A DNA stretch of 64,000 bases, taken from NCBI GenBank assembly GCA_964523705.1, contig CAZFYA010000001.1, forward strand, positions 121,420 to 185,419, read 5' to 3'. A program made the position numbers and the translations under genes. Shown one piece after another: positions 23,486-58,970 of the stretch. The notes below the pieces were generated by a model. That model searched no databases, was not told the DNA's origin, and was given only the letters and a program-made list of their open reading frames with translations. Each line of letters opens with the position of its first letter. Position 1 is the first letter of the stretch. Origin of the DNA: an uncultured Gammaproteobacteria bacterium (GTDB taxonomy: Bacteria; Patescibacteriota; Microgenomatia; Levybacterales; UBA12049).

Positions 23486-26400
23486 TTATTTTCCCTCTCC
23501 TTCACTGCCGGTTTTTAATCCTTCGGCAACCATTTCGCTTCCGCCAAGCTCTTTTACCATTTCTTCTGCTTCTTTTTCTACTTCTTCCTCAACTTTTTCT
23601 TCTTTCTCTTTTTCAGCTAATGGCTCTTCTTTTTCTTCTTCCTCAACTTGAGCACCAACCGGAGTAACGTTTAAGCCAAGAGCTGCTAATTCTTTAATTA
23701 ATACTTTAAAGCTCTCAGGAATCTTAGGAGTTGGAATATCTGTTCCTTTAACAATTGCCTCAAAGGCTTTTGCTCTTCCAACTACGTCATCTGATTTTAT
23801 AGTTAACATTTCCTGAAGAGTATACCTTGCCCGATGTGATTCAAGAGCCCAAACCTCCATTTCTCCTAGACGCTGTCCTCCCATTTGGGCTTTTCCACCA
23901 AGTGGCTGCTGTGTTACTAAAGAATATGGACCAGTACTTCTTGCGTGAGTTTTATCCTCAACCATGTGAATTAACTTCATCATGTATTCAAGCCCAACTA
24001 CAACCGGTTTTTCATAAGGCTCACCTGTTCTTCCGTCAAAAAGAATCGCTTTTCCATCAACTGGAAGCCCTGCTTTTTTTAAGTCATCAACAATTCTATC
24101 TTCCTCAATTTTTTCAAAAGCCGGAATACCCACCTTTCCTTTTAATCCTTTTTCTGCCCAGCCTAAATGAGCTTCTAATAGCTGTCCTAAATTCATACGG
24201 GCCAGTACTGAAATTGGAGAAATGATAATATCAACCGGTGTTCCATCAGCAAGTCGTGGCATGTCAACTTCAGGTAAGATTCTTGAAATTACACCTTTAT
24301 TTCCGTGTCTTCCGGCTAATTTATCTCCAATTACAACGTGTCGAAGTTGTGCAACCTCAACAATTATTTTTCTAATTGTTCCGGGTTCTAATTCATCGCC
24401 TTTTTTCCTATCTAAAATTTGAACATTAATAACAGTACCCCTCTCTCCATGAGGCATCCTCAAAGATGTATCCCTTACATCTCTTGCCTGTTCTCCAAAG
24501 ATAGCTCTTAATAGTCTTTCCTCTGCTGTTAATTCAGTTTCACCCTTTGGTGCAATTTTTCCAACTAAAATATCTCCTGATGAAACATCTGAGCCGACAA
24601 CTACAATTCCTTCTTCATCTAAGTTTGCCAAGTCCTCCTCTGAAACATTTGGAATATCTCTGGTTGTTTCTTCAGGTCCTAGTTTTGTTTCAACTACTGC
24701 TGCTTCGTGTTTTTCAATGTGAATTGAAGTTAAAACATCTTCTTTTACCAATTTTTCAGAAATGACAATTGCGTCTTCATAGCCTAGTCCGTCAAATGAG
24801 GTATAGGCAATTAAAAGATTTCTACCTAAAGCCAATTCTCCCTCATCTGATGCCGGTCCATCAATTAATAAATCACCTTTTTTAACTTTTTGTCCGGTTT
24901 TAACAACTGTTCTTTGAGTATAGGCAGTTGCTTGAGAAGTTCTTCTAAATGAATCAACTAAATATGTTTCTTCTTCTTTCCCTTTTCCCTTAATTATTAC
25001 TTTTGTTGCATCGGCATATGTAATTGTGCCATCAAATGGAGCAAGAACTACTCTTCCCATAACTTGGGAGATTTCTTTTTCCATACCTGTTCCAACCACC
25101 GGGCTTTCAGGTTTAACAAGTGGTACTGCCTGGCACTGCATGTGGGTTCCCATTAGGGCTCTATTGGCCTCATCATGGCTTACAAATGGAATTAAAGAAG
25201 CTGCTGCTCCAACAACTTGTCTTGGAACAATATCAACATATTCAATTCTCTCTTTTTCAGCCTCTAAAAACTCTCCTCTGTATCTTGCCGGAACACGCTC
25301 GCTTTTAATTGTTCCGTCTTCTCCTAATACTTCAGCATGAGAAATATAGTGTTTTCGCTCATCATCGGCTGTCATGTAGACGATTTCATTGGTTGCTTTA
25401 GAAGTAGTCTTTTTACCCTTTTTAGTATGAACCACTTTTCTATATGGTGTCTCTAAAAAACCAAATGGATTAACCCTTGAATAAAGTGACATGTAAGTTA
25501 CAAGGCCAATATTTGGTCCTTCAGGACTTCTAATAGGACAAATTCTTCCGTATTGGGAAGAATTAATGTCTCTGATTGAAAAGGCTGCTCTTTCTCTTGA
25601 AATTCCACCTGTTCCCATAACAGTTAATCTGTTTAAATTGTCAACTTCTGATAAGGGATTTGTTTGGTCTAAAATTGTGGATAACTGTGAGGTTCTGAAG
25701 AATTCATTAATTGAAGCCATAATTGGTCTGGCATTAATAAGGTTGGCAATTGAAATTGGCGCATCTGCCTGAATTAAACTCATTCTCTCTTTAATGCTTC
25801 GCTCAAGTCTTAAAACTCCGATTCTAAAAGCAGTTGTAGCAACTAATTCTCCAACACATCTAACTCTTCTATTGGCAAGACTGTCAATATCATCAACTCC
25901 GTCTCCGCCTTTGGCAAGCTCAATTAAGGTTGCAATTGTACCAACAATATCATCAATGGTTAAAATCCTGGTATTTTCATCTGCTTGATTAAAACCTGAA
26001 GCATCTTTTAGTTTTTTATTTATCTTATATCTTCCAACAGTTCCTAAATCATACCTTCTGTTATTAAAAAACATGCCGTTAAAGTTTTCTTTTACCTTAT
26101 CAATAACAATTGGTTCTCCTGGGTGCATTTTCTTAAAGATTTCAACAACTGCTTCATCTGAATCAACTGTGTCGTCTTTTTGTAAAGTATTATCAATAAA
26201 GGAGGTTTTTCCATCTGCTTCTAATTCCTTAAATCTCTCCTTAATATCTTCATTTGAGGATAAACCAACTGCTCTTAAAAAGGTTGATGCTAAAAACTTT
26301 CTTCTTCTGTCAATCTTAACCATAATGGTTTCATGCCTGGTGGTTGTAAACTCAAGCCATGAACCATGAACCGGTCTGATTTCTCCCATGTATAAGTTTT

Positions 26401-26878: not shown

Positions 26879-26964
26879 TTGAAAAATCTTTAGATAAATT
26901 CTTTAGAAATACAAAAAAAATCAACCAGACTTTCGTCCGTTAATTTTCTAATGAAAGTATTAGG

Positions 26965-26993
26965 TTTATATCACAGCCTATTATAGCTGTCAA
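26965..26993 (-). promoter_or_regulatory. rpoB promoter (-35 TTGACA, 17 bp, extended -10 TGaTATAAA)
   Basis: Minus-strand read: ttgaca gctataataggctgtga tataaa. Confidence 0.5.
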
Positions 26994-27001
26994 GAGGTAA
27001 A

Positions 27002-27030
27002 TTGATATGTGAAAATTATTGCAGTATAAT
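27002..27030 (+). promoter_or_regulatory. divergent promoter for the defence-island gene (-35 TTGATA, 17 bp, -10 TATAAT)
   Basis: Plus-strand read: ttgata tgtgaaaattattgcag tataat. Confidence 0.5.
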
Positions 27031-27045
27031 TACCTTTTAGCATTT

Positions 27046-28071
27046 ATGCCATCACAAGCAGAAATGAAACCGCTGCCTTCTTATCCATCTAAGGAAGGGA
27101 TTATTTTAAACTTCAGCGACCCTGACGTACAAGCAGATTTTTTAACAAGACCAAAAGAAGAACGACAAAAATTTATTAATGAGCAGCAAGAGTTTCAAGA
27201 CAAAGCAAGAAGTGTTTCAGAAGCTGTTTTTAAAAGAACATTGCCGTTTTTTACCCATGTTTATGAGTTTTTGGAAGATGATTTAATTGATAGAAGACAG
27301 CAATTATTTGAAGATAGACTTCTTCATAAAGAAGACTTAGCTATTTTCGAAGAAGAAAACCCAATCTACTCTTTGACAATTTCACTTGTACAAAAAGCGC
27401 TTGAAGCAATTCCTCCTGAATACAGAAAGGGCTTTGATATCAGGGACTACCTGGTTCCTGTCGGAGATAAAGATGAAGCCTTCTTAAGAACAGGAAAAAC
27501 TAAAAAAGATGATTTAAAAGCTTTTCTTTCTAGGGATAATCTAGAAATAATTTGGAATGTTGATACAGAAGACCACGATACAAATAATCATGTAAACCCC
27601 TCTAGCCCTGAATACGAATATATCTTACCTCACACATTTTCATTGCTTTGCGCATCTTTGGATTTAATAACCAGCCAGGAAATTAGAATAAGAAATTATG
27701 GTAAAACTGTTGAAGAAAGACAAGGTTTTTCAATTATTTATACTGATACTAAAACAGGAGAACAGGATATTGTAAATGAGAAACTAAACGAAGCTACAAA
27801 ATTAACACTGGTTTACTCAATGCTTTTAAAATATAGTCCACTTGGAAGATTTATTGATCAAGAAAAAGTTAACAATAGTGAAATGAAAAATCTTTGCTTG
27901 GATATCTCCGAGCTTGTTGATTTTCTCCCGCCTTATCAATTTCAACACTGCTACTTAACCGGTAATTTTGAATTACTACGTGAAAAAATGAAAGAAACCC
28001 AAAAACAAGAAGGAAAACCAGGAGAAAAAGTAATAGCAATTTTTAATAGATATAGCGGTATAAAGATATAG
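27046..28071 (+). CDS. hypothetical protein (about 340 aa), first gene of the defence island
   Basis: The ORF track uses a TTG start at 27019, which lies inside the predicted promoter. First ATG at 27046; alternative at 27064 (MKPLPSYPS). No recognisable domain. Confidence 0.45.
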   Translation: MPSQAEMKPLPSYPSKEGIILNFSDPDVQADFLTRPKEERQKFINEQQEFQDKARSVSEAVFKRTLPFFTHVYEFLEDDLIDRRQQLFEDRLLHKEDLAIFEEENPIYSLTISLVQKALEAIPPEYRKGFDIRDYLVPVGDKDEAFLRTGKTKKDDLKAFLSRDNLEIIWNVDTEDHDTNNHVNPSSPEYEYILPHTFSLLCASLDLITSQEIRIRNYGKTVEERQGFSIIYTDTKTGEQDIVNEKLNEATKLTLVYSMLLKYSPLGRFIDQEKVNNSEMKNLCLDISELVDFLPPYQFQHCYLTGNFELLREKMKETQKQEGKPGEKVIAIFNRYSGIKI

Positions 28072-28076
28072 GATAA

Positions 28077-28733
28077 TTAAGTTTTCTTATGATACACCTT
28101 TTCCCCAAGATGCCTATATTTACACCATGAACAATTAGGATTTTCCACTGGTGGTTTACCTTCTAATAATTTATTTATTTCTCCAATAAATTCTAAAAAG
28201 GAATCTTTTTTAATATCAACCTCTAACCATTGAGGTGGAAAATCAATAATTGCTTTTCCGTTTTCAAATTTTGTTTTATCAGGATACATAATAACAAGAC
28301 CAAGTTTTGTTATCTCTTTTGGTATCCCCCTTGCTGGATTTTCAAAAGCATAATGATATGCTTGAAGCTGTGTTTGGTACTTAGCAATCTTCTCCTCTGT
28401 TGGCTGACTTATTTTAAAATCAATAATTAAATACGTACCGTTCTTTTGTTTTACTAATAAATCATATTTTCCTTTAATATATATTTTTGTTTGGGGAATT
28501 ATCTTTGATTCAACAAAGCCTTCTTGGCTTTCAACAGTTCCCTCTGGTAAAAACTTAGATAATAATCTTAAATCCTGCCCTATTAATGCATTTTGAAGTC
28601 TTGTATTTAAAGCTGTAAAAACTCCTGGGAAAGGAGATGAAGGACGATAAATACCATGTTTTACCTTTAAATAATAACAACATTTACATTCTTCATAAAG
28701 ATAAGCAAAATCTGATGGGGATAGTTTATACAT
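28077..28733 (-). CDS. Cas4-like / RecB-family PD-(D/E)xK nuclease with Cys cluster (DUF83-like), not CRISPR-linked
   Basis: N-terminal LSPSDFAYLYEECKCCYYL resembles the Cas4 ...YLYCPR..YL motif. Nuclease motifs present: GKYDLL, IIDFK and QLQAYHYAF (QhxxY). C-terminal CSWCKYRHL. Confidence 0.65.
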   Translation of the reverse strand: MYKLSPSDFAYLYEECKCCYYLKVKHGIYRPSSPFPGVFTALNTRLQNALIGQDLRLLSKFLPEGTVESQEGFVESKIIPQTKIYIKGKYDLLVKQKNGTYLIIDFKISQPTEEKIAKYQTQLQAYHYAFENPARGIPKEITKLGLVIMYPDKTKFENGKAIIDFPPQWLEVDIKKDSFLEFIGEINKLLEGKPPVENPNCSWCKYRHLGEKVYHKKT

Positions 28734-28886
28734 AGAAAGATTATACGACTTTAATAGGAAAATTTATATAGTAATTTTACGTGGTTATGCCTTGAGAATG
28801 CGGGAATATCCTGTGTGCTCCTAATTCCTAACCTCTAAAAGACTAAAAACACCTAATTGAAATATAGACTTTTTTAAAACAAGGAA

Positions 28887-29444
28887 TCAAGAAGTTTTAG
28901 TTTTGAGTATATTATTAATTAAATCATTTCTATCCCAAAGAGTAATATTGTTTTTTTTAGCTAGATACATAGCTTCATTTGTATAGTTACTATTAGTCAC
29001 AACCATACCTAGATCACAGTTCCTAGGCTTAATAACCGTATTAACCTCTCTTATGGCATCTGGTCCTACTTTATTTTTATATCTTTTTGCTTGAACTGCT
29101 ATTTTTAGGTCATTCATTTCAATAATTAAATCTGAGCCTAAATCTCCTGTTCTCCCAACTTGTTTTACACTATATCCTAATTTAGTAAATAAACTTGTAA
29201 GAAATACCTCAAAATCCACTCCCGACATTTTATCCACCTCAGAGATCCCTGCTTTTCTTATTCTTTGATAGTTATAAATTTTAATAGCTATTATAGTGAT
29301 CATCATGACTAAAAGTAAAACAAATAACCACCAATTTTTAATAATTATTTGAGAATAAAGATTGAGTACTAAAGGAAATGATTGAAGCATCGGTTGAATT
29401 AGTATCTTTTCATAGTCCATTTGAAATGGTGTTGGTGTAGGCAT
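28887..29444 (-). CDS. membrane-anchored Mrr-like restriction endonuclease (Mrr_cat) domain protein
   Basis: TM helix (WWLFVLLLVMMITIIAIKIY) followed by GVDFEVFLTSLFTKLGYSV...GRTGDLGSDLII...IAVQAKRYKNKVGPDAIRE, matching the Mrr catalytic-domain pattern. Confidence 0.65.
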   Translation of the reverse strand: MPTPTPFQMDYEKILIQPMLQSFPLVLNLYSQIIIKNWWLFVLLLVMMITIIAIKIYNYQRIRKAGISEVDKMSGVDFEVFLTSLFTKLGYSVKQVGRTGDLGSDLIIEMNDLKIAVQAKRYKNKVGPDAIREVNTVIKPRNCDLGMVVTNSNYTNEAMYLAKKNNITLWDRNDLINNILKTKTS

Positions 29445-29480
29445 AAATTAATAGAACTACAAATATATTAAGAAGTCAAG

Positions 29481-29548
29481 CTTAAAATCCAAATATTTCG
29501 AGGGCTTTGTAGATAAAAGGGCTGGCCAGACTATTGCTTTAAGAGTTC
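29481..29548. repeat. direct repeat copy 1 (~68 bp); decayed duplicate of the 3' end of gene 31622-31873
   Basis: cttaaaatccaaatatttcgagggctttgtagataaaagggctggccagactattgctttaagagttc, against copy 2 at 31621-31689. Confidence 0.8.
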
Positions 29549-30312
29549 TCTTTTATAAAATCTTTTAATAAAAATGCACTAAAAATCAGTTTATTTGATG
29601 TCTTAATTGTTCTATGCATTTCTGTATTGCTTTCAAACCAAGGAATACCATCTATAATGGTAATTCCTTCTGTTTTTTTAGAATTAATATTTGCTATGCT
29701 AACAGCGCTTCTAAATTGACCTAACTGGGTTCCTCCGTCGTCTGTGATAAACTTTGCTTCAATTATAAAAAAATGCTTATCTGTTTTAAAAAGTGCATCA
29801 ATTCCTTTTTCAAGATAATTTATGCCTAGTTCTTCTTTTGCATATTCCGATAACTTTCTGTCTGAACCTTCTAAAAATCCGTATTTTGTTTTTTTAAAGT
29901 CTCTTTTATTGTAAAAGGGATATTTTTCTTTTTTTAACCAAGCACGAAAACAGGGTCCATATCTCCTGGAATCAGATTTTGGAGTAGAAGAAAGTTTAAT
30001 TATTCCTTTTTCTCCGATTTCAAAAAGCTTTTTAGCAATAATGTTCACAATCTTAGGATTTTTATCCACTAAATGCTTATGCTTTCTCAGTGATGCAACA
30101 TACGAATTATTAAACGGAAATCTTTTAAGAAGAAGCACTTTACTGAGTAATTCGTTTTTATCTTTTTTAAGATAAGCCTTTTTGATCTCATCCCTAAGTG
30201 TTTGATCAATTTTTCTTTCGAGCCCCTCGCCTATTGGGTAAATTTCCAACAATTTGTCTAAATATCCGTTTGAATTTGCTAACTCAAGGCTTTTTTTAGT
30301 CCATTTATTCAT
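29539..30312 (-). CDS. putative type II restriction endonuclease (PD-(D/E)xK-like)
   Basis: 257 aa, 24 nt downstream of and co-oriented with the MTase; ...DKHFFIIEAKF... is a candidate D-x(n)-E-x-K catalytic core. Confidence 0.5.
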   Translation of the reverse strand: MNKWTKKSLELANSNGYLDKLLEIYPIGEGLERKIDQTLRDEIKKAYLKKDKNELLSKVLLLKRFPFNNSYVASLRKHKHLVDKNPKIVNIIAKKLFEIGEKGIIKLSSTPKSDSRRYGPCFRAWLKKEKYPFYNKRDFKKTKYGFLEGSDRKLSEYAKEELGINYLEKGIDALFKTDKHFFIIEAKFITDDGGTQLGQFRSAVSIANINSKKTEGITIIDGIPWFESNTEMHRTIKTSNKLIFSAFLLKDFIKENS

Positions 30313-30336
30313 TGCAATTGCGTATTATACAACAAG

Positions 30337-31542
30337 TTATAAGTTTATTCTTGTTTGCTCGGAGTTAAAATAAGAATTTTTTTTATATACCTTATTAAAA
30401 TAAACGTAATTAATTAATTTATACGAAAAGTCAAAGCTTATTCTTTTTCTATTATTGTCTCTAAAATTAGTCAAGAAAAAAGATAAATGTTCACTTCTTG
30501 CCTTGTTTAATTCATTATTAAAATAGTCAATAATCTTTCGTTGTGTTTGTATATCTAAATCTTTTTTGAACAGCAAATAGGCCATGTTTCGTGAAGTTTG
30601 TTTTCCTACTAATCCTGAAACTTCATATTTTCTGATGTCCTCAAGCATAATCTTATCTTTATTTTTTGTATCAATGGCCTTTAACAGAATTATATTCTTG
30701 CTTATTCTTTTAAATAAACTATCGTCTATTGTGTATTCATTAACCTCTTTTACGTGATTATAGGCTAATTTTATTTTATATTTTCCTTTTTTAAGCATGT
30801 CTTCTGTTAGTCTATAAATTCCAAGTATGTTTTTAACTTTTGAGATCTTATTATCAAACTCGCCACCCATTCTCCATCCATATTTTTTTTCTAGTTTTAA
30901 TTTAATTTCCTTTTTTTCTGGAAAAATCAATGCATCTATTTCATTTGTCTCGCTATCATCTTTTTTCAATTTATAATAAAAAGATATTACATTATATGTT
31001 GTATCCTCAAAAACTTTTTCATAAAAAATATTTAATTTTTCTATTTTAAATTTTTTAAAAAATAAATCTCTAATTTTCTTCGAATTTTTAGCAGACAAAA
31101 AATTTAGTGGCACTATCATAATTCCCTCTTCTGAATCAAGAACTGAATTTATAGAAACTTGGTATAAATCTTCAAAGCTACTGTTTAAGCCGGAAAAATA
31201 ATCAATTTTTGTTTTTTGGGAAGCTTTATTTTTGTGAAGATATGGCGGATTAGTTAATAAAAATTTGTATTTCTTAGGATATTTAATTCCATCATTTAAA
31301 AATACCTCTTTGTTATCAACTAAATTTTTAGCTATTTCGTATCCAACTATTGAAGAAGCACCATGTTTTTTTGCCCATTTTATTAGATCTCTATTTCCAG
31401 CAAAAGGATCTACTACTATTTTTCCCTTAATAAACTTACCTAAGCCAAATAAAACATAATCTGATTTTTTTGTAAAAAACTGACCTAATTGTCTTTTTTC
31501 ATCTTTTTTAAAATATGATTCTTTTAAGGCCTGTTTTTTCAT
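30337..31542 (-). CDS. N6-adenine DNA methyltransferase, gamma class
   Basis: Motif I VVDPFAGNRDL (about aa 45) then motif IV LLTNPPY (about aa 98), with a long C-terminal target-recognition region. Confidence 0.8.
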   Translation of the reverse strand: MKKQALKESYFKKDEKRQLGQFFTKKSDYVLFGLGKFIKGKIVVDPFAGNRDLIKWAKKHGASSIVGYEIAKNLVDNKEVFLNDGIKYPKKYKFLLTNPPYLHKNKASQKTKIDYFSGLNSSFEDLYQVSINSVLDSEEGIMIVPLNFLSAKNSKKIRDLFFKKFKIEKLNIFYEKVFEDTTYNVISFYYKLKKDDSETNEIDALIFPEKKEIKLKLEKKYGWRMGGEFDNKISKVKNILGIYRLTEDMLKKGKYKIKLAYNHVKEVNEYTIDDSLFKRISKNIILLKAIDTKNKDKIMLEDIRKYEVSGLVGKQTSRNMAYLLFKKDLDIQTQRKIIDYFNNELNKARSEHLSFFLTNFRDNNRKRISFDFSYKLINYVYFNKVYKKNSYFNSEQTRINL

Positions 31543-31620
31543 CTTAATTTCAAATTTATAATACCACTTTAATTAAATCTCGTAAAGAAATTTATTAAAT
31601 AATATAAAGAGGTTTTTGTA

Positions 31621-31689
31621 CTTAAAATCCAAATACTTCGAGGGCCTTGTAGATAAGAAAGGCGGGCCAGACTATTGCTTTAAGAATTC
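31621..31689. repeat. direct repeat copy 2 (intact; encodes the C-terminus ...GILKAIVWPAFLIYKALEVFGF*)
   Basis: About 88% identical to copy 1, with one 1-bp indel. Confidence 0.8.
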
Positions 31690-31873
31690 CTAGGACTCCT
31701 GCTCCAAAGGTTTCTGCATGTTGAATAAAGTAAATTGCTGCTCCGACAAATCCCAAACCATATACTGCACTTCCACCACCATGATTGTGGTTTTTGCAAA
31801 CATACTTTTTATAATCCTTTTTCTCTTTTTCTGCCATCAAAATGAATATATCACCTGTTTTTAGGCAATGCAA
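31622..31873 (-). CDS. small membrane protein (likely start at the internal Met, MAEKEKKD...)
   Basis: 83-aa ORF; hydrophobic GLGFVGAAIYF and WPAFLIY segments. Its 3' end is duplicated as the flanking repeat. Confidence 0.45.
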   Translation of the reverse strand: MHCLKTGDIFILMAEKEKKDYKKYVCKNHNHGGGSAVYGLGFVGAAIYFIQHAETFGAGVLGILKAIVWPAFLIYKALEVFGF

Positions 31874-31905
31874 ATAGTAAGCTTAATCGTGATATAATTT
31901 AGCTA

Positions 31906-33642
31906 ATGACAGCAAGAGAATTAATTGATATCTACATTTCTTTTTTTGAAAAAAGAGGACATAAAAGAATTCCTAACTCCCCTTTAGTTCCTGAAAACGA
32001 CCCAACTACCCTTTTTACCTCATCCGGAATGCAACCCTTAGTAAACTACCTTTTAGGAGAAGCTCATCCTTTAGGAAAAAGATTAGTTAATGTACAAAAT
32101 TGCTTTAGAGCACAAGACATTGATGAAGTTGGTGACAGCTCTCATACAACCTTTTTTAGAATGCTTGGAACTTGGTCTTTAGGAGATTATTTTAAAAAAG
32201 AAGAAATCCCCTGGTTTTGGGAATTTTTAACTAAAGAATTAAAACTACCAAAAGAAAAGCTATATATCTCAATTTTTAAAGGCTTTGAAAACATTCAAAG
32301 AGATACCTTGTCTGAAGAGATTTGGACAGAGATATTAAACATCGAAGGATTAAATCCAAAGGATAGAATTCTTGTTTATGGAACAGATAAGAATTGGTGG
32401 TCAAGATCCGGAGAACCAAAGAATATGCCAATTGGAGAAATTGGCGGACCGGACACTGAAGTATTTTATGATTTTGGAAATAACAATCTATTAGAAATTG
32501 GAAACGCTGTCTTTATTCAATACCAAAAGACAGATAGTGGTTTTAAAGAATTGCCACAAAAAAACGTCGACTTTGGTGGAGGAGTTGAAAGACTACTTGC
32601 CTCAATTGAGGGAAAAGATGATATTTTTCAAACCTCTTTATTTTCTCCAATAATTTTAGCAATTGAAAAGGAAACTAGTAAAAAATATGAGGAACATAAA
32701 AAAGAAATGAGAATAATTACAGATCATTTAGTAGCCTCTTGTTTTATCATTTCATCAAATATTAAACCTTCAAAAACAGAACACGGATATATTTTAAGAA
32801 GATTATTAAGACGCTCTTTTGATAATTTTAAAACTTTAGGTGGAAAAGATATAACTAAACTTTTAGAAGCAATAATTGAGCAATACAAAGAGACTGACCC
32901 CTTCTTGATCGAAAAATGGGGAGAAATAAAATTAACGGTTTTAGAAGAAGAAGGAGGATATAAAAAGACAATTGATGAAGCAGTAAAACTACTTCATAAA
33001 ACAAAAGATGACTCAACTTCTGAAGTTAGAGAAATATCAGCTAGTGAGGCATTTAAAATGTATTCAACCCATGGCCTATCCCCAACTCAAATTAGAAGCT
33101 TAGGCTTTGTCTTTGATGAAAAGGAATTCTCAAAGAAAATGGAAGAACACCAAAAGCTTTCTAAAAAAGGCGCTGAGAAAAGATTTAAGGGAGGACTTGC
33201 CGACTCCTCAAAAAAAACAATTGCCGGACATACAGCAACTCATTTGCTTCATATTGCTTTAAGAAATGTTTTAGGAGAAGAGGTATCACAGAAGGGCTCA
33301 AACATAACCGATGAAAGAGTTAGATTTGATTTTAACTATTCTGATAAATTAACAGATGAAGAGATTAAAGCGGTTGAAGATGAGGTAAATAAGATTATTA
33401 AACAAAACTTAAAAGTAACCTATGAGGTTTTAGCATTAGAAGAAGCAAAAAAAATAGGGGCTTTGGGTAGTTTTAGCAAGAAATATGAGGACAGGGTAAA
33501 AGTATATTCAGTTGGAGACTATTCTAAAGAAATCTGTGGTGGACCTCATGTTGATTTTACAGGAAAGTTAAAAAGCTTTAAGATAATAAAGCAGGAGAAT
33601 ATTGGCAAGGGCCTTAGAAGAATTTACGCAAAAGTCGATTAA
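31906..33642 (+). CDS. alaS: alanyl-tRNA synthetase, short form (catalytic + tRNA-recognition + editing domains, no C-Ala domain)
   Basis: 578 aa; N-terminal class II AlaRS core (FTSSGMQPLVNYL..., NCFRAQDIDEVGDSSHTTFFRMLG), editing-domain HTATHLLH and CGGPHV motifs. Ends right after the editing domain. Confidence 0.9.
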   Translation: MTARELIDIYISFFEKRGHKRIPNSPLVPENDPTTLFTSSGMQPLVNYLLGEAHPLGKRLVNVQNCFRAQDIDEVGDSSHTTFFRMLGTWSLGDYFKKEEIPWFWEFLTKELKLPKEKLYISIFKGFENIQRDTLSEEIWTEILNIEGLNPKDRILVYGTDKNWWSRSGEPKNMPIGEIGGPDTEVFYDFGNNNLLEIGNAVFIQYQKTDSGFKELPQKNVDFGGGVERLLASIEGKDDIFQTSLFSPIILAIEKETSKKYEEHKKEMRIITDHLVASCFIISSNIKPSKTEHGYILRRLLRRSFDNFKTLGGKDITKLLEAIIEQYKETDPFLIEKWGEIKLTVLEEEGGYKKTIDEAVKLLHKTKDDSTSEVREISASEAFKMYSTHGLSPTQIRSLGFVFDEKEFSKKMEEHQKLSKKGAEKRFKGGLADSSKKTIAGHTATHLLHIALRNVLGEEVSQKGSNITDERVRFDFNYSDKLTDEEIKAVEDEVNKIIKQNLKVTYEVLALEEAKKIGALGSFSKKYEDRVKVYSVGDYSKEICGGPHVDFTGKLKSFKIIKQENIGKGLRRIYAKVD

Positions 33643-33648
33643 AAAATT

Positions 33649-36078
33649 ATGAAACTTCCGTTTTCAAAAATGTTTGAAAAAAAAGAAAAGCCAGAGTTTT
33701 ATTTAGCGTTTTTACTTCGCCATGAAAAAGCAATTGCTGTAATCTTTGAACAGACAGGAACAGCAGCTAAAGTTGTTGGTGAGGGGGAAGCATCTTTTGA
33801 AAAAAATATTGAAGAGGCTACTTTTGAAGAACTACTTAGTGTTTCAGATAAAGCAATTTCAAAAGCAGAGGAGAATGTTCCGGAAGACAGTAGTACTTTA
33901 AAAACACTCTTTGGTTTAAAAGAAGGTTGGATAGCAGAAGATAAGATAAAAAAAGAGTATCTTGAAAGACTTAAAAAAATTAGTGACGAATTAGGCCTTT
34001 CTCCAATTGGCTTTATAACTATAACTGAGGCAATTACTGACTTTTTAAAAAAAGAAGAAGGAATTCCCCTATCTGCAATTTTAGCTGAAGTTGGAAAAGC
34101 TTATGTTTCAGTATCTTTGGTTAAGGCCGGGAAAATTTTAGAGACAAAATCATCTGAAATTCATGAAAACCCTGCCTTTACCACTGATGTACTTCTTAAA
34201 CATTTAGAAATACCAGATGTACTCCCATCAAAAGTAATTTTATACAACGGAGAAGATGAAGACTTATCGCAAAAATTTATCCATCATAAATGGAGCAAAG
34301 CTCTTCCCTTTTTACATCTCCCACAAATTATTTCTCTTCCTAAAGGCTTTGATGCCAAAGCAATCTTGCAGGGTGCAGCAAGCAAGATGGGTTTTGAAAT
34401 AATATCTGAAGGTCCTCTTAAAAGTACAGAAGAAAAAGAGGAACTTCCCTCTTTTGAAAAAATGGAATATAAAGATGAAGCATCTCCTAAAAAAGACGAA
34501 GAAGAAAAAAAAGAAGAGAGTGAGGAAAAAGAAGAGGAGAAAGAAGGAGAAGAGAAAGAGGAAGAAATAAACTTTGTTGAAAATGAAGATTCAATTGAAA
34601 AATTCGGCTTTATTGAAAATGAAGACGTAGTAAACATACCTCCTGCTAAAAAGGGACTTGAAAAAGAGGAAGAAGAAAAAGAAAAGGAAGAATTAAAAGA
34701 AGAAGACAAGGATAAAAAAGAAGAACAAAAAGAAAGTAAAGAAGAATTAAAAATCCACCAAGCTCCCCTAACCGCAGTTGAGCAACATGATGAAGAAGAT
34801 GAAGAAGAATATGGTATTGAAAGAAAAAGAGGAAAAAATATTTTTACAAAAATACTTACTGTTATTCCTCTTTTCTTTTCCTCTATTTTTAAAAAATTAA
34901 GACTTCCCGGAAATAAAGGAGCACTACTTTTGTTAAGAAATAAATTTATTGCAATTCCCCTTTTAGTAATCCTTGCCATTATTGCAGTTTATGTAATTTC
35001 TTTCTTCACTTTAAAAACAGAAGTAGTTTTAACGTTAAATCCAAAACTTGAGGAGGAAAAACAAGATGTTACTTTTTCAGCAGAAACAACAGACGTTGAT
35101 GAAAAAATAATTTTTGGTAAGTTTATTGAAGCCTCTCTTAAAGATTCAGTCTCAACCTCAACAACCGGTAAAAAAGAAACCGGAGAAAAAGCAAAAGGAG
35201 AAGTAACTTTTTTCAGTCGTTTTACTTCTAAAAAAACAATTGCTAAGGGAACTGTACTTACTTCATCAAATGATATTGATTTTACTCTTGATGAAGATGT
35301 TTCAGTTGCATCTTCATCTGCTGATGCCAGTGAAGACCCGGCAACTGCTAAGGGAAAAGTAACTGCTAAAAATATTGGTAAGGAAAGTAATCTTCCATCA
35401 GGTGCTAAATTTTCAGTTGGCAATTTATCCCCGGGAGATATTATTGCCAAAAACGAAAGTGCATTTTCAGGCGGAACTAAAAAAGAAATAACCGTAGTAG
35501 CAGAAGAAGACAGTGAAAAACTACTAACAGAAATTGTTGAAAAACTGAAAGAAGAGGCATTAGAAGAATTAACTAAAAAAATTAATAGCGAAAAAGAGGT
35601 TTTACTTCCGGTTGTAATTTCATCTGAAGTTGATGAAGAAAACTTTGATAAGGAAGTTGGAGATGAGTCTTCAAAGCTTAATCTTGAAGCAACGGTTCTT
35701 TTTCAGGGACTATCCTATTCAAAAGAAGATTTATTATCTTTTACCAAATCTCTTCTTGATAAAGAGCTTTTAGGAAAAATGGAAATAGATGAAAAAAACA
35801 TTAAAGTGGATGTTGAAGACATTAAAGAAAAAGATGAAGATAGCGACACTGTTTCTGCAACTTTAAAGATTAAAGCTCCTCTTTTACCAAGTCTTAAAAA
35901 AGAAGAACTTGCTAAAAACATCAGCGGTAAATCAAAAGAAGAAGCAAAAAATATGCTTTTAGACATTTCTCAAGTTGTTGATGTAGATATTAATCCTTCT
36001 CTTCCTCTTCCGTTTCTAACCAACTATCTGCCCAAGTTTTCCAATAATATAGAAATTGTCACCAAAGTTAATGAGTAA
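33649..36078 (+). CDS. large bitopic membrane protein: cytoplasmic domain with possible actin-like (PilM/FtsA-like) fold, E/K-rich low-complexity linker, one TM helix, ~370-aa extracytoplasmic domain
   Basis: 809 aa. N-terminal segments (AIAVIFEQTGTAAKVVGEG; LSPIGFITITEAITD...LAEVGKAYVSVSLVKAGKI) resemble the phosphate-1 and phosphate-2 regions of PilM/FtsA. TM helix IAIPLLVILAIIAVYVISFF. Starts 6 nt after alaS and overlaps the sortase gene by 23 nt. Confidence 0.4.
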   Translation: MKLPFSKMFEKKEKPEFYLAFLLRHEKAIAVIFEQTGTAAKVVGEGEASFEKNIEEATFEELLSVSDKAISKAEENVPEDSSTLKTLFGLKEGWIAEDKIKKEYLERLKKISDELGLSPIGFITITEAITDFLKKEEGIPLSAILAEVGKAYVSVSLVKAGKILETKSSEIHENPAFTTDVLLKHLEIPDVLPSKVILYNGEDEDLSQKFIHHKWSKALPFLHLPQIISLPKGFDAKAILQGAASKMGFEIISEGPLKSTEEKEELPSFEKMEYKDEASPKKDEEEKKEESEEKEEEKEGEEKEEEINFVENEDSIEKFGFIENEDVVNIPPAKKGLEKEEEEKEKEELKEEDKDKKEEQKESKEELKIHQAPLTAVEQHDEEDEEEYGIERKRGKNIFTKILTVIPLFFSSIFKKLRLPGNKGALLLLRNKFIAIPLLVILAIIAVYVISFFTLKTEVVLTLNPKLEEEKQDVTFSAETTDVDEKIIFGKFIEASLKDSVSTSTTGKKETGEKAKGEVTFFSRFTSKKTIAKGTVLTSSNDIDFTLDEDVSVASSSADASEDPATAKGKVTAKNIGKESNLPSGAKFSVGNLSPGDIIAKNESAFSGGTKKEITVVAEEDSEKLLTEIVEKLKEEALEELTKKINSEKEVLLPVVISSEVDEENFDKEVGDESSKLNLEATVLFQGLSYSKEDLLSFTKSLLDKELLGKMEIDEKNIKVDVEDIKEKDEDSDTVSATLKIKAPLLPSLKKEELAKNISGKSKEEAKNMLLDISQVVDVDINPSLPLPFLTNYLPKFSNNIEIVTKVNE

Positions 36079-51701: not shown

Positions 51702-52727
51702 TTAGCTATTGGCATTATCTTCTTTTTTCTCTTCCTTTTTTTCTTCTACTGTTTCTTCTTTTACTTCTTCCTTTGGTTCTTCTTTTCCTTCTATTTCAAT
51801 TCTATAACCGGTTAGTTTTGAAGCAAGTCTTACATTTTGCCCATCTTTTCCAATTGCTAAAGATAATTCACTTTCAGGAACTAAAACATGAGCACTTTTT
51901 TCCTCTTCATTTAAATCAACTTTTAATTCCTTAGCCGGAGATAGGGCTTGGGTAATATAGCTTTTGGGATCTTCTTGCCATTGAATAACATCTATTTTTT
52001 CAAGACCATTAAATTCTTGAATAATTGATTGGATTCTAACTCCTTTTTGTCCAACACAGCTTCCAACCGGATCAATCCCTGATTGATTTGAAAAAACTGC
52101 AATTTTACTTCTGTTTCCAGCTTCTCTAACAATTGCTTTTACTTCAACTGACCCTTGTGCAACCTCTGGGACTTCTCTTTTTAAAAGTCCTTCTAAAAGC
52201 CCTGTACTGGCTCTTGAAACAATTATTTCTTCTCCCTTTAAGCCTTCTTTAATTTCAGTAATATATACTGAAAGTTTTTGATTTAAGAAATATTTTTCGT
52301 TTTGAATTTGTTCCTGTGGTGGCATTATTCCCTCGGTTTTACCAATATCAACAATAATGTTTGGACCTGCAAATCTTAAAATCATTCCATTAACAACTGT
52401 TCCAATTCTGTGTTTGTAATCTGACATTATTGCCTCTTTTTCTTTTTCTCTAATTTTTTGAAGGATTACCTGTTTTGCTGTTTGAGCAGCAATTCTTCCA
52501 AATCCGGGCGGAGTTATATCTTTTCCTTTATCTAAAATTCTTGCTTCACCGGTATTTGCATCTAGTGATACTTCGTATTCCTCAACTTCTTCTTCCGGGT
52601 GATCTTTTCTGTAGGCTGCAAGGATAGCATTTTTAACTGTATCTAAGATAATAGAAACATCAATCCCCCTTTCGGCGGCTACTTGATTTAATGCTAATGC
52701 GAATTCACTTCTTTGTATTGCCGGCAT
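51702..52727 (-). CDS. nusA: transcription termination/antitermination factor NusA (no C-terminal AR repeats)
   Basis: 341 aa; N-terminal domain, S1 domain and two KH domains. Confidence 0.9.
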   Translation of the reverse strand: MPAIQRSEFALALNQVAAERGIDVSIILDTVKNAILAAYRKDHPEEEVEEYEVSLDANTGEARILDKGKDITPPGFGRIAAQTAKQVILQKIREKEKEAIMSDYKHRIGTVVNGMILRFAGPNIIVDIGKTEGIMPPQEQIQNEKYFLNQKLSVYITEIKEGLKGEEIIVSRASTGLLEGLLKREVPEVAQGSVEVKAIVREAGNRSKIAVFSNQSGIDPVGSCVGQKGVRIQSIIQEFNGLEKIDVIQWQEDPKSYITQALSPAKELKVDLNEEEKSAHVLVPESELSLAIGKDGQNVRLASKLTGYRIEIEGKEEPKEEVKEETVEEKKEEKKEDNANS

Positions 52728-56274: not shown

Positions 56275-58395
56275 TTATAGAAGAAACATTTTTAGCGCTG
56301 TTAACCTAGCCATTAAAGGTATTCCACGAGTGAAAATTTGTCTAATTTTTTCCTTTTGTCTTAAAATTCTAAGCAAGATATAAAGTTCAAGAAGAATTAA
56401 AAAGGCAAAAAACGCTGCCATACTATTTGCTCCTCCTGTTATTCCTCTTGTATTTGTTGATGCACCCAAAACCGGTGGAATATCCTTAGTTTTTTCTCCT
56501 AAAACCTCCTCAATTGGTGCGTAGACACCAAATACTTTAAATGTACTGTCAGCAAAGGATGAAACATCATCCTCTTCTTCTCCGGCTTTTCCTATGGCAT
56601 AAGCTCTGGCTATATATTGTCCACCTGGAGTATTAGGTGATAGGACAAGTCCTGTTGATACTTTTACCATTTTCCCTGGTTCTATTACTCCTAAATCAAA
56701 CTCTGTTCCACCAACATTTACACCATCTTTAATTAAAAACAATGCTAATTTTGATTCATAAACTTTACCAGTTCCTGTATTTTTAATTTTTACAAAGAAA
56801 GTTACCGTATCGCCTGGTAACACATATTCTCCAACATTGTTTGTCTGTTCAACCTCAAGTTTTCCACCATTTTCTCTTAAATATGAATTATCCAAGCTAT
56901 TACCAGCTAGAATATTTTCATCTTTCTTTGTTTGATTATCTTCATTATTATTATCAGTGTTATCTTCAACCGCAAGTGCTTCAAATTCTGCTTTTCCACC
57001 AATGTCTCCGTTTAATCTTCCAAAAATATTAATAAAGCCAAAAAAACCAATTGAATTAATAATATTGGTGTTTATAAAATTAAGTATAGAAACCGTACTA
57101 TACGCATTACCTGTTTTAATATTTGAATCATCCCCATTAATTAAATTTCCACCAGTGTTTGCCGAAGATAAAATGTTGTTTGAGACAATTGCATTGTTCT
57201 TAAGATACATGTCTCCAGTGCACAAATCACAATCTTCATTTCCTGATCCCGCTGTTACATAATTTATGTCTAATGATCCTCCTCCTAATTGAGGACCAAT
57301 TGCTCCCCAGCCAATAAAGTCTCCGTTCCACTCACCATAAGTATTAATGTATAAAGTTTGTATCCCAACTCCTAAATAATTTGAATTAACTATGTTTAAA
57401 TTATCAACTAAACTTCCTGCATCTCCTGTTTCAATACTTGCGCTTCCTGAAGCAGTGACAATTGTGTTTTCCCCAGTATTAGCTTCTGATTTAACATTAT
57501 TCTCAACTACTGCGTTATTGTCAGCGAGGATTGAAACGCCACATGTATCACAAGTGGTATCTTCTGTTTGAATATTAGGTAAAATTATGTCTCCATTAAT
57601 ATCTCCGTAGATATTTATCATTACTACGTGAACCACTGAATTAATAGTAATAAAATTAACTTTATTTAAAAGAAGTGTTGTGGCGTAAGCATCTCCTGTA
57701 TCAATACTGGCACTTCCTGAAGCAGTGGTAATACTGTTTTCTCCGCTTTGAGCTGTTGTAATAATGTCATTTGAAACATAAGCAAAATTACTAATCCCGG
57801 TTGCCTTAACTGTAATTATTTCTTCATTTGGTTTTTCGCTTAATGCTTTAGTTGCAATTGCGATTGGATCTGATAAGTCAACATCTCCTTCTTGATCGTA
57901 AATGATATTAATTATCTGATATTCAACCTCTGAATTTATAGATGTTGAATTAACATCGTTTTCAACAACAGTAGTAGAAACAGCGTCTCCTGTTTCAATG
58001 GAATTTGAATCTTCATCTTCATTGTTTTCTTCATTCTCTTCTTCTTGTTGACAAGTTGAATTAACGCTTGCAGATTCCGTTGCCGTAGCTGTATCTAATT
58101 CTGGTGTTGGAGTTGGGGAAGCTGAAGTAGAACTTAAATCAGCTACTTTATCTGCTTCAGTTGTTGGAGTTGGTGTTGGTTCAGTAATTTCATTTTCTCC
58201 TGTGTTTGAATCTGTAACAACAGTTGTTTCTACTACTGTAGAATTATCAATTTCTGTTTGTGTCTCAACCGGGGTTGGGGTTGGATCAACAATTTCTTCT
58301 TCATCAGCAAAAATAGCTACAGGTTGTAAAACGTAGACTAATAAAAGACTTGTTATTAACAACTTTGCCAATGTTTTTTTAGTTTTTTCAATCAT
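56275..58395 (-). CDS. secreted repeat protein (three ~95-aa CxxC-ANTGxN-TGxA repeats) with C-terminal VLGxxT-TM-basic module
   Basis: 706 aa; signal peptide (AIFA/DEEE); the three repeats are quoted in the findings; C-terminus EEVLGEKTKDIPPVLGASTNTRG...MAAFFAFLILLELYILLRILRQKEK. Confidence 0.6.
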   Translation of the reverse strand: MIEKTKKTLAKLLITSLLLVYVLQPVAIFADEEEIVDPTPTPVETQTEIDNSTVVETTVVTDSNTGENEITEPTPTPTTEADKVADLSSTSASPTPTPELDTATATESASVNSTCQQEEENEENNEDEDSNSIETGDAVSTTVVENDVNSTSINSEVEYQIINIIYDQEGDVDLSDPIAIATKALSEKPNEEIITVKATGISNFAYVSNDIITTAQSGENSITTASGSASIDTGDAYATTLLLNKVNFITINSVVHVVMINIYGDINGDIILPNIQTEDTTCDTCGVSILADNNAVVENNVKSEANTGENTIVTASGSASIETGDAGSLVDNLNIVNSNYLGVGIQTLYINTYGEWNGDFIGWGAIGPQLGGGSLDINYVTAGSGNEDCDLCTGDMYLKNNAIVSNNILSSANTGGNLINGDDSNIKTGNAYSTVSILNFINTNIINSIGFFGFINIFGRLNGDIGGKAEFEALAVEDNTDNNNEDNQTKKDENILAGNSLDNSYLRENGGKLEVEQTNNVGEYVLPGDTVTFFVKIKNTGTGKVYESKLALFLIKDGVNVGGTEFDLGVIEPGKMVKVSTGLVLSPNTPGGQYIARAYAIGKAGEEEDDVSSFADSTFKVFGVYAPIEEVLGEKTKDIPPVLGASTNTRGITGGANSMAAFFAFLILLELYILLRILRQKEKIRQIFTRGIPLMARLTALKMFLL

Positions 58396-58454: not shown

Positions 58455-58483
58455 AAAAAGAAAAAAACAGACTTATTAGTCTG
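58455..58483 (-). terminator. intrinsic terminator (cagacu-aaua-agucug + U-run) overlapping the stop codon of gene 58476-58970
   Basis: Minus-strand read: cagactaataagtctg tttttttcttttt. Confidence 0.55.
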
Positions 58484-58970
58484 CTGTTCCACCTAAAATA
58501 TTTGTGTTAACAACACTTGTTACATATGAACCAGCTGTTGCTGCTCCTGTTGTAAGAGCGCTGCCACCAACACATTTACCGGAAACTTTGTTAATACCGG
58601 TGTTTGCTAAACTACCTGTTAAGTTTAGAACTGTTCCAGAGTTTTTAATAGTTTCTCTTGATCCTCCAAAACAGGTATTACATTGTATATTTGTGTAGTT
58701 AGCCTGTGTTGTAACCTCAGATGTTGCTCTTGCTGCTCCTGTTGTAAGAGCTCCGCCGCTAACATATTTACCAGAAACTTTGTTAACACCGGTATTTGCA
58801 ACTGTTAAGGTTAAATTACCAACAAATGCATGGTTATCAATATATGTTGACCCACTTTGTTGTGGCATAGGAGGCATAAAACAACCACCGCCAATACATT
58901 GAGCGTTTGCTGGTAGGGCAAATGCCAATGCTAAAGCTAATGTTATTCCTCCAAATAAAAGTTTTTTCAT
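58476..58970 (-). CDS. small secreted protein with two ANTG(V/I)NKVSGK...ALTTGAA repeats
   Basis: 164 aa; signal peptide (ALPANA/QC); internal tandem ~45-aa repeat. Perfect SD AGGAGGTGA 7 nt upstream. Confidence 0.6.
   Translation of the reverse strand: MKKLLFGGITLALALAFALPANAQCIGGGCFMPPMPQQSGSTYIDNHAFVGNLTLTVANTGVNKVSGKYVSGGALTTGAARATSEVTTQANYTNIQCNTCFGGSRETIKNSGTVLNLTGSLANTGINKVSGKCVGGSALTTGAATAGSYVTSVVNTNILGGTAD

What the first reader, a model, noticed from the sequence alone, without database searches (positions are those of the whole stretch)
29481..31689. R-M gene pair bracketed by ~68-bp direct repeats that duplicate the 3' end of a host gene
Two direct repeats of about 68 bp (about 88% identical, one 1-bp indel) bracket exactly two genes: a gamma-class N6A methyltransferase and a PD-(D/E)xK-like endonuclease. 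They lie at 29481-29548 and 31621-31689.
- Copy 2 encodes the last 22 codons and the stop of the 83-aa membrane-protein gene (...GILKAIVWPAFLIYKALEVFGF*).
- Copy 1 is a frameshifted, decayed copy of the same gene end (LKAIVWPALLSTKPSKYLDFKL...).
- Copy 1 overlaps the REase stop codon and lies in the upstream region of the Mrr-like gene.
The simplest history is insertion of an R-M unit at the 3' end of the small gene with a long target duplication. That insertion split a formerly adjacent pair, the small membrane protein and the TM-Mrr endonuclease. Long target duplications flanking R-M units have been described in comparative studies of R-M mobility.
Basis: seen in the sequence. Interest (0 to 1): 0.65.

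Follow-up and report, generated by a model that had tools for sequence, protein, structure and literature searches.

The report
Restriction-modification cassette with 68-bp target duplication
A two-gene restriction-modification cassette sits just after a small membrane-protein gene in a Levybacteria (candidate phyla radiation) genome, flanked by a duplicated 68-bp copy of that gene's end; this mode of insertion is already documented in other bacteria, so it is a clean but ordinary example.

Summary
Two direct repeats lie at 29481-29548 and 31621-31689. They match at 63 of 69 aligned columns with one 1-nt indel, have sharp edges, and are the best self-match in the 64-kb window (E 1e-19).

They bracket exactly two genes: a Tsp45I-family restriction endonuclease (Pfam E 8e-59) and a gamma-type N6-adenine methyltransferase with intact DPFAG and NPPY motifs. 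The 2,072-bp insert has the lowest GC of any window of that size (0.264 against 0.334).

Two related Levybacteria lineages (83-88% nt identity) keep the small gene and alaS. Each has one copy of the 68-bp sequence and no restriction-modification (R-M) genes. This meets the published criteria for "R-M insertion with long target duplication" (Nobusato 2000; Furuta 2010).

The insertion is old. Copy 2 has two synonymous changes and one Leu-to-Phe change. Copy 1 has two substitutions and a frameshift.

No relative has the Mrr-like gene. In the empty-site relatives the small gene is followed directly by the PD-(D/E)XK (Cas4-like) gene, and in another lineage by unrelated cargo. The rpoB-alaS gap is a general variable region in Levybacteria.

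Verdict: a new member of a known kind, of low to moderate interest.

The parts
29481..29548 (-). Repeat copy 1. It is the distal, decaying copy of the small gene's last about 22 codons plus stop plus 1 nt, frameshifted by a 1-nt deletion. Its inner 10 nt supply the last two codons and the stop of the REase.
31621..31689 (-). Repeat copy 2. It is the functional 3' end of the small membrane-protein gene (GILKAIVWPAFLIYKALEVFGF*).
29549..31620 (-). Inserted segment between the repeats (2,072 bp). It holds only the REase and MTase genes and their 78-nt upstream region. GC is 0.264, the lowest 2,072-nt window in the 64 kb.
29539..30312 (-). Type II restriction endonuclease of the Tsp45I family (257 aa). 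It is full length, with D172...E185-x-K187 in columns conserved across homologues.
   Evidence: Pfam PF06300 E 7.8e-59 over 2-254 of 257; PADLOC REase_II 9e-45; alignment A2
30337..31542 (-). N6-adenine DNA methyltransferase (401 aa) with gamma-type motif order: DPFAGNRDL at about residues 45-53, then NPPY at 98-101, then a C-terminal variable region.
   Evidence: No direct Pfam or PDB hit. A family profile hits the adenine MTases CamA (3.7e-8) and M.TaqI (0.01). Of 35 homologues, 23 match Pfam Eco57I and 10 match N6_Mtase. Motifs shown. Weak PglX hit.
31543..31620 (-). Upstream region of the MTase inside the insert. It has one sigma-70-like site (TTTACG-17-TATTAT, 31586 to 31558).
   Evidence: a consensus match only; the count in the region is not above chance
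31622..31837 (-). Small membrane-protein gene (71 aa from the ATG; the ORF extends to a TTG at 31873, giving 83 aa). It is the target gene and has stayed intact.
   Evidence: 839 homologues, no Pfam family
28887..29444 (-). Mrr-like nuclease with an N-terminal TM segment. It neighbours the insert, is absent from all relatives found, and is probably a separate acquisition.
   Evidence: Pfam Mrr_cat 4e-30; closest homologue 67%; absent from L001-L084
28077..28733 (-). PD-(D/E)XK / Cas4-like nuclease gene. This is the gene that directly follows the small gene in the empty-site relatives.
   Evidence: Pfam PDDEXK_1 1e-11; PADLOC Cas4; 85-88% nt identity to L084, L065 and L081

Best explanation
A horizontally acquired Type II R-M cassette (MTase then REase, 2,072 bp, carrying its own upstream region) was inserted right at the end of a small membrane-protein gene, in the variable rpoB-alaS gap of a Levybacteria genome. 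The insertion duplicated 68 bp of target: the last about 22 codons, the stop and 1 more nt. Because of the duplication the small gene stayed intact (copy 2). The displaced copy (copy 1) became non-coding, picked up a frameshift, and now supplies the REase's last two codons and stop.

Shown: the repeat; the identity of the two genes; a single-copy target and no R-M in relatives; the compositional oddity of the insert; and the different substitution patterns of the two copies.

Inferred: the direction of the event (insertion, not deletion in the relatives) and its age. Each copy has about 3 private changes against about 4 on the L081 branch, so the event is old, not recent.

Not resolved: the molecular route that makes a 68-bp duplication. 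Candidates are widely staggered breaks with fill-in, or integration of a circular intermediate that carried a copy of the target. The literature on this class has not settled this either.

The cassette presumably works as an ordinary restriction barrier with m6A self-protection. Both ORFs and their motifs are intact.
For: - Repeat: 63/69 identical, E 1e-19, sharp edges.
- Only two ORFs lie between the copies, a Tsp45I-family REase and an N6-adenine MTase.
- Relatives at 83-88% nt identity are colinear on the alaS/small-gene side and at the PD-(D/E)XK gene. They have one copy of the 68-bp sequence and no R-M.
- L081 has no repeat of the gene end.
- Insert GC is 0.264, the minimum of all 2,072-nt windows.
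- Copy 2's private changes are two synonymous (CCA>CCC, AAA>AAG) and one Leu>Phe. Copy 1's are two substitutions and a 1-nt deletion. c1 and c2 share derived bases against L081 and L065.
- No integrase or transposase lies in the insert or within about 12 kb; the neighbours are rpoBC, rpsLG, fusA, alaS, sortase, YceG and FtsK.
- No terminal inverted repeats sit at the insert ends.
- The case meets the criteria of Furuta et al. 2010 (R and M in the insert, insert under 20 kb, duplication over 30 bp, target single-copy in a related genome; PMC2853133). That paper also reports repeats overlapping a gene's 3' end.
Against: - No relative has the exact pre-insertion arrangement. Against L065/L084 the indel is 2,884 nt and includes Mrr, so at least two events, or one composite import, are needed.
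- The relatives are other species-level lineages (about 15% nt divergence), not strains.
- c1 and c2 are only slightly more alike (63/69) than either is to L081 (61/69), so the phylogenetic signal rests on very few sites.
- GC3 of the R-M genes does not deviate.
- The nearest R-M pair elsewhere (L085: M 75%, R 59% aa) has no flanking long repeats.
Confidence: 0.7

Rival explanations
1. The repeats are attL/attR-like products of a single-crossover (Campbell-type) integration. A circular DNA carried the R-M pair plus a copy of the small gene's 3' end. It recombined with the chromosomal gene end, either by homologous recombination or by a site-specific recombinase acting in trans.
For: It gives the same final structure: an intact gene, a displaced 3' end and the cargo between direct repeats. 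Integration into gene 3' ends with restoration of the gene is the classical island and prophage pattern (general knowledge; discussed in PMC2853133). The junction of variable DNA falls 0-4 nt after the stop codon in all three lineages.
Against: No integrase or other recombinase lies in the insert or within about 12 kb. Furuta et al. use the 30-bp threshold to exclude typical site-specific recombination repeats, and 68 bp is well above it. Both copies share lineage-specific bases, so the 'element' copy would have had to come from the same lineage.
Confidence: 0.15
2. The whole 2.9-kb block (Mrr, copy 1, REase, MTase; 28738-31620) entered this lineage in one step by homologous replacement from a related strain. 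The duplication already existed in that strain, so the window lineage never had the small gene and Mrr as direct neighbours.
For: Against L065/L084 the difference is one 2,884-nt versus 47-nt indel. Mrr is absent from every relative. Levybacteria show heavy turnover in this gap.
Against: It only moves the duplication event to a donor; it does not replace the target-duplication explanation. Window 28731-28811 is homologous to L081's racemase upstream region, which suggests several local events rather than one.
Confidence: 0.1
3. Chance or relic repeats. The small gene, or its end, was already duplicated in tandem, the R-M landed between the copies, and most of the distal copy was then deleted.
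For: Furuta et al. list 'chance insertions between repeated sequences' as one class of R-M flanked by direct repeats.
Against: All relatives found have a single copy of the small-gene end. The repeat edge coincides exactly with the insert edges on both sides. There is no third copy beyond Mrr.
Confidence: 0.05

Closest known systems
R-M insertion with long target duplication (Nobusato et al. 2000, Gene 259:99; Furuta, Abe & Kobayashi 2010, NAR 38:2428, PMC2853133)
   Same: A small insert holding R and M genes with no mobility gene. It is flanked by direct repeats longer than 30 bp that are single-copy in a related genome. The repeat overlaps the 3' end of a host gene, as in the H. influenzae cases. 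The insert GC is below the genome average.
   Different: The host is a CPR/Patescibacteria (Levybacteria) genome, a group not among the taxa listed in that survey. The comparison genomes are about 15% diverged rather than conspecific strains. The repeats are older (91% identity, one copy frameshifted). The distal flank is not colinear with the empty sites because of an extra Mrr-like gene.
Tsp45I-type Type IIP restriction-modification systems (Pfam PF06300; Tsp45I recognises GTSAC, from my own knowledge of REBASE)
   Same: The REase matches the family model end to end (E 8e-59). An adjacent co-oriented m6A-type MTase precedes it.
   Different: Specificity is unknown. GTSAC is depleted against dinucleotide shuffles (14 vs 38) but not against a maximal-order Markov expectation, so there is no clear avoidance signal. 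The closest homologue is only 59% identical.
Integrase-mediated genomic islands inserted in the 3' end of tRNA or small genes
   Same: Cargo between direct repeats that duplicate a gene's 3' end, with the gene kept intact.
   Different: No integrase. The cargo is only two genes. The repeat is imperfect and longer than a typical recombination core.

Membership tests
R-M insertion with long target duplication (criteria of Furuta et al. 2010) | Both R and M gene homologues lie inside the inserted sequence | tested here: met
   REase Pfam Tsp45I 7.8e-59. MTase family profile hits adenine MTases, and 23/35 homologues match Eco57I MTase. NPPY and DPFAG motifs present.
R-M insertion with long target duplication (criteria of Furuta et al. 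2010) | Insert shorter than 20 kb and without other mobile-element genes | tested here: met
   The insert is 2,072 bp with two ORFs only. No integrase or transposase within about 12 kb.
R-M insertion with long target duplication (criteria of Furuta et al. 2010) | Direct duplication longer than 30 bp at both borders | tested here: met
   68/69 bp, 63/69 identical, sharp edges
R-M insertion with long target duplication (criteria of Furuta et al. 2010) | A related genome without the insert has one copy of the repeat, with both flanks aligned | tested here: inconclusive
   A single copy and no R-M are seen in L065/L084 and L081-L083. The alaS/small-gene flank aligns right up to the repeat. On the other side, homology resumes only at the PD-(D/E)XK gene, because Mrr is absent from the relatives.
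Type II restriction-modification system | A cognate, active endonuclease and methyltransferase with the same specificity | not testable with these tools
   Both ORFs are intact with conserved motifs and the M-R pair is conserved as a unit in L085. Activity and specificity need methylome or biochemical data. The GTSAC avoidance test was inconclusive.
Integrase-mediated integrative island | A tyrosine or serine recombinase gene in or next to the element | tested here: not met
IS or transposon-borne R-M | Terminal inverted repeats and a short (2-15 bp) target duplication | tested here: not met
   No inverted repeat joins the insert ends. The duplication is 68 bp.

The most novel reading that the evidence does not exclude
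The position just after the stop codon of this small gene may be a recurrent, integrase-free insertion site in this Levybacteria clade. Three lineages at about 85% identity carry three different contents at exactly that junction: R-M plus Mrr; three unrelated genes; nothing. The 68-bp duplication would then be the footprint of the mechanism that loads it. If so, the same mechanism might be traceable across CPR genomes, which rely heavily on R-M defence.
Probability: 0.12. Interest if true: 0.5.

Novelty: new member of a known kind. Interest (0 to 1): 0.3.

Why it matters
It extends a documented but mechanistically unexplained mode of R-M gene mobility to a candidate-phyla-radiation bacterium. 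[quoted passage not shown] It also shows such a footprint can stay recognisable long after the event. It does not change how R-M mobility is understood. Its practical value is as a dated example: it has an intact target gene, a decaying duplicate and an empty site in relatives, and could be added to comparative surveys. The corrected neighbourhood history matters for anyone tempted to read the small-protein/Mrr adjacency as a functional pair, because the evidence here does not support that.

Tried and rejected
- Exact-sequence look-ups of the window's small protein and Mrr found nothing.
- The MTase gave no direct Pfam or PDB hit. A single-sequence AlphaFold model was unusable (pLDDT 34). The fold class was instead reached with a family profile.
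- GTSAC avoidance was inconclusive. There are 14 sites against 37.9±6.1 in dinucleotide shuffles, but the site ranks 43 of 77 under a maximal-order Markov model.
- Homology between the DNA beyond copy 1 and the relatives' DNA downstream of the small gene is only a TTGACTTCT 9-mer (p = 0.31). I do not use it as evidence that Mrr was the original neighbour.
- The repeat does not extend into either flank above chance.
- There is no third, decayed copy beyond Mrr.
- The closest R-M pair (L085) has no flanking long repeats.
- A viral-contig scan with the REase family found no relative.
- A JGI metagenome scan with the repeat core found only distant small-gene homologues at 46-67% aa.
- The closest Mrr homologues are not linked to the small gene.
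- The rpoB-alaS gap cargo in other Levybacteria is mixed (DUF763, MFS transporters, subtilase, NUDIX). It is not a dedicated defence island.

Full report
**1. Observation**

The repeat finder reports 29481-29516/31621-31656 (94%) and 29517-29548/31658-31689 (91%), displaced by 1 nt. MAFFT and blastn join them into one 69-column match with 63 identities and a single 1-nt gap. In a self-comparison of the whole 64-kb window this is the top hit (E about 1e-19).

The 20-40 nt outside either end are no more similar than shuffled sequence, so both edges are sharp.

Read on the minus strand, copy 2 encodes GILKAIVWPAFLIYKALEVFGF*, the end of the small ORF at 31622-31873. That ORF is 71 aa from the ATG at 31837. 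Copy 1 reads TLKAIVWPALLSTKPSKYLDFKL..., the same peptide frameshifted by a 1-nt deletion.

Copy 1 overlaps the last 10 nt of ORF 29539-30312, covering its stop and two codons. It ends 36 nt upstream of the ATG of ORF 28887-29444.

**2. What lies between the repeats**

There are exactly two ORFs, both on the minus strand.

- **Endonuclease, 29539-30312 (257 aa).** It matches Pfam Tsp45I (PF06300) end to end (E 7.8e-59) and a PADLOC Type II REase model. Aligned with 11 homologues it is full length. It keeps every invariant column, including D172 and E185-A-K187. Homologue C-termini vary by 2-10 residues after LLK(D/E)FI, so ending in the repeat costs it nothing.
- **Methyltransferase, 30337-31542 (401 aa).** It has no direct Pfam or PDB hit, and a single-sequence AlphaFold model failed (pLDDT 34).
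  - HMMER found 688 relatives among cluster representatives.
  - A profile of 35 of them hits the adenine-specific DNA MTase CamA (8cxz/7lni, E 3.7e-8), M.TaqI (E 0.01) and Type I M subunits.
  - Of those 35 members, 23 match Pfam Eco57I methylase and 10 match N6_Mtase.
  - The window protein has DPFAGNRDL followed by NPPY. The Arg at the second Gly position is shared with its closest relatives, so it is not a defect.
  - Motif I before motif IV with a C-terminal variable region is the gamma arrangement, as in M.TaqI (my own knowledge of the class).
- **The unit elsewhere.** M followed by R is conserved as a unit in the closest relative found (L085: M 75%, R 59% aa). There it has a different genomic context and no long flanking repeats.

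**3. Composition**

The segment between the repeats (29549-31620) has GC 0.264 against 0.334 for the window. It is the minimum of all 2,072-nt windows (profile). GC3 is not unusual, at 0.20-0.23 against 0.17-0.29 in the neighbours. The deviation therefore lies in codon positions 1 and 2. The donor was probably similarly AT-rich, or the genes have had time to ameliorate.

**4. Relatives**

AlaS-anchored loci show the window comes from a Levybacteria (Patescibacteria/CPR) genome. Two lineages are close enough to compare at the DNA level (83-88% nt identity).

- **L065/L084** (identical to each other where they overlap). L065 1-389 aligns with window 28349-28737, the PD-(D/E)XK gene. L065 437-1832 aligns with window 31622-33011, the small gene and alaS. 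Only 47 nt lie between them, against 2,884 nt in the window.
- **L081-L083.** The small gene is followed by genes of 293 aa, 191 aa and an Asp/Glu racemase, then the PD-(D/E)XK gene. There is no repeat of the small-gene end.
- **L001** (AlaS 74%). The small gene abuts rpoB directly.

None of the 84 loci held at that point (80 AlaS-anchored plus L081-L084) has the REase, the MTase or the Mrr-like gene. In the 5.8-billion-protein collection the nearest REase is 59% identical and the nearest Mrr 67% identical, apart from the source contig itself. Every relative has one copy of the 68-bp sequence, inside its small gene.

**5. History read from the repeat**

Identities over the 69 columns are:

| Pair | Identical / columns |
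|---|---|
| c1 vs c2 | 63/69 |
| c1 vs L081 | 61/69 |
| c2 vs L081 | 61/69 |
| c1 or c2 vs L065 | 55-56/69 |

I polarised the six c1/c2 differences using L081 and L065 (sequences).

- Copy 2 has three private changes: CCA>CCC and AAA>AAG, both synonymous, and CTT>TTT, Leu>Phe.
- Copy 1 has two private substitutions and the 1-nt deletion.
- The two copies share one or two derived bases against both relatives.

This is what one expects if the sequence was duplicated within this lineage, with one copy kept under purifying selection and the other drifting. About three changes per copy, against about four on the L081 branch, means the event is old, not recent. The numbers are small, so the dating is rough. 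Both R-M ORFs have nevertheless stayed intact.

**6. Comparison with the known class**

Furuta, Abe and Kobayashi (NAR 2010, PMC2853133), following Nobusato et al. (Gene 2000), define "R-M insertion with long target duplication" by four features:

- R and M homologues lie in the insert.
- The insert is shorter than 20 kb and has no other mobile element.
- The duplication is longer than 30 bp.
- A single copy of the target is present in a related genome.

They list cases in Helicobacter, Haemophilus, Campylobacter, Neisseria, Microcystis and others. Some have repeats overlapping a gene's 3' end and insert GC below the genome average.

The first three features are met here. The fourth is met for copy number and for the alaS-side flank, but not cleanly for the other flank. 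No integrase or transposase is present in the insert or within about 12 kb. The neighbours are fusA, rpsG, rpsL, rpoC, rpoB, alaS, a sortase, a nucleoside phosphorylase, YceG and FtsK. No inverted repeat joins the insert ends.

The mechanism that produces such long duplications is unresolved in the literature. The authors suggest it involves double-strand breakage, and they propose a life cycle with amplification between the repeats. I cannot add to that from sequence alone.

**7. The Mrr claim**

The Mrr-like identity is sound (Mrr_cat E 4e-30). The adjacency is not supported, for four reasons.

- Relatives without the R-M also lack Mrr.
- The DNA beyond copy 1 (29445-29480) shares only a 9-mer (TTGACTTCT) with the L065/L084 intergenic region. 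That is within chance for these AT-rich sequences (p = 0.31).
- Window 28731-28811, just upstream of the PD-(D/E)XK gene, is homologous to the racemase upstream region of L081. This shows further local rearrangement.
- Homologues of this Mrr sit next to T4SS pilin genes or other defence genes, never next to the small gene.

Mrr may have arrived before, after or with the R-M unit. There is no decayed third copy of the repeat beyond Mrr.

**8. Context**

Across Levybacteria the divergent rpoB-alaS gap ranges from 159 nt to about 9.6 kb; it is 5,027 nt here. Its cargo is mixed: DUF763, MFS transporters, a subtilase, a NUDIX fusion and others. It is a general variable region next to core genes, not a dedicated defence island.

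**9. Specificity**

GTSAC, the Tsp45I site (my own knowledge), occurs 14 times against 37.9±6.1 in dinucleotide shuffles. Under a maximal-order Markov expectation it is unremarkable, ranking 43 of 77 palindromes. This test is inconclusive.

**10. Verdict**

- The secondary interpretation, a split small-gene/Mrr pair, is not supported.

It is a new member of a known kind in an under-studied phylum. Interest is about 0.3.

Noticed in passing
window 26879-31905; loci L001-L080: The divergent rpoB-alaS gap is a variable region across Levybacteria. It ranges from 159 nt to about 9.6 kb (5,027 nt here) and carries unrelated cargo in different species: DUF763, MFS transporters, subtilase, NUDIX fusion.
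   Followed up: partly
window 28731-28811 vs L081 12092-12173: The 80 nt upstream of the window's PD-(D/E)XK gene, start codon included, match the region upstream of an Asp/Glu racemase gene in L081. That racemase overlaps the PD-(D/E)XK gene in L081. The racemase ORF seems to have been precisely lost here, or gained there, while the same upstream region was kept.
   Followed up: partly
L081 10380-11964: In the L081 lineage the same junction after the small gene's stop codon carries two ORFs (293 aa and 191 aa) with no Pfam or PADLOC match.
   Followed up: partly
whole window: CTAG, CTSAG, GATC, GTAC and GGCC are the most under-represented palindromes under a maximal-order Markov model (O/E 0.43-0.64). 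They may reflect other R-M specificities in this genome or lineage.
   Followed up: no
window 29539-31542 vs L085 2323-4294: Against the nearest R-M pair, the methyltransferase is much better conserved (75% aa) than the endonuclease (59% aa).
   Followed up: no
window 56275-58395 and 58476-58970: Internal direct repeats (57419/57689 and 58534/58726, 82-86% identity) fall inside two predicted secreted or surface proteins with repeated NTG.N...SG...TGxA motifs.
   Followed up: partly
window 34655-34734 vs 51720-51802, and 23569-23615 vs 34659-34705: Inverted self-matches of 47-84 nt (77-85%) involve the acidic, Glu/Lys-rich tail of rpoB and the low-complexity middle of the 809-aa protein. They are probably low-complexity coding sequence.
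   Followed up: no
L086 5001-7330: The closest homologue of the TM-Mrr protein (67% aa) lies directly upstream of TrbC/T4SS-pilin genes in another metagenomic contig.
   Followed up: no
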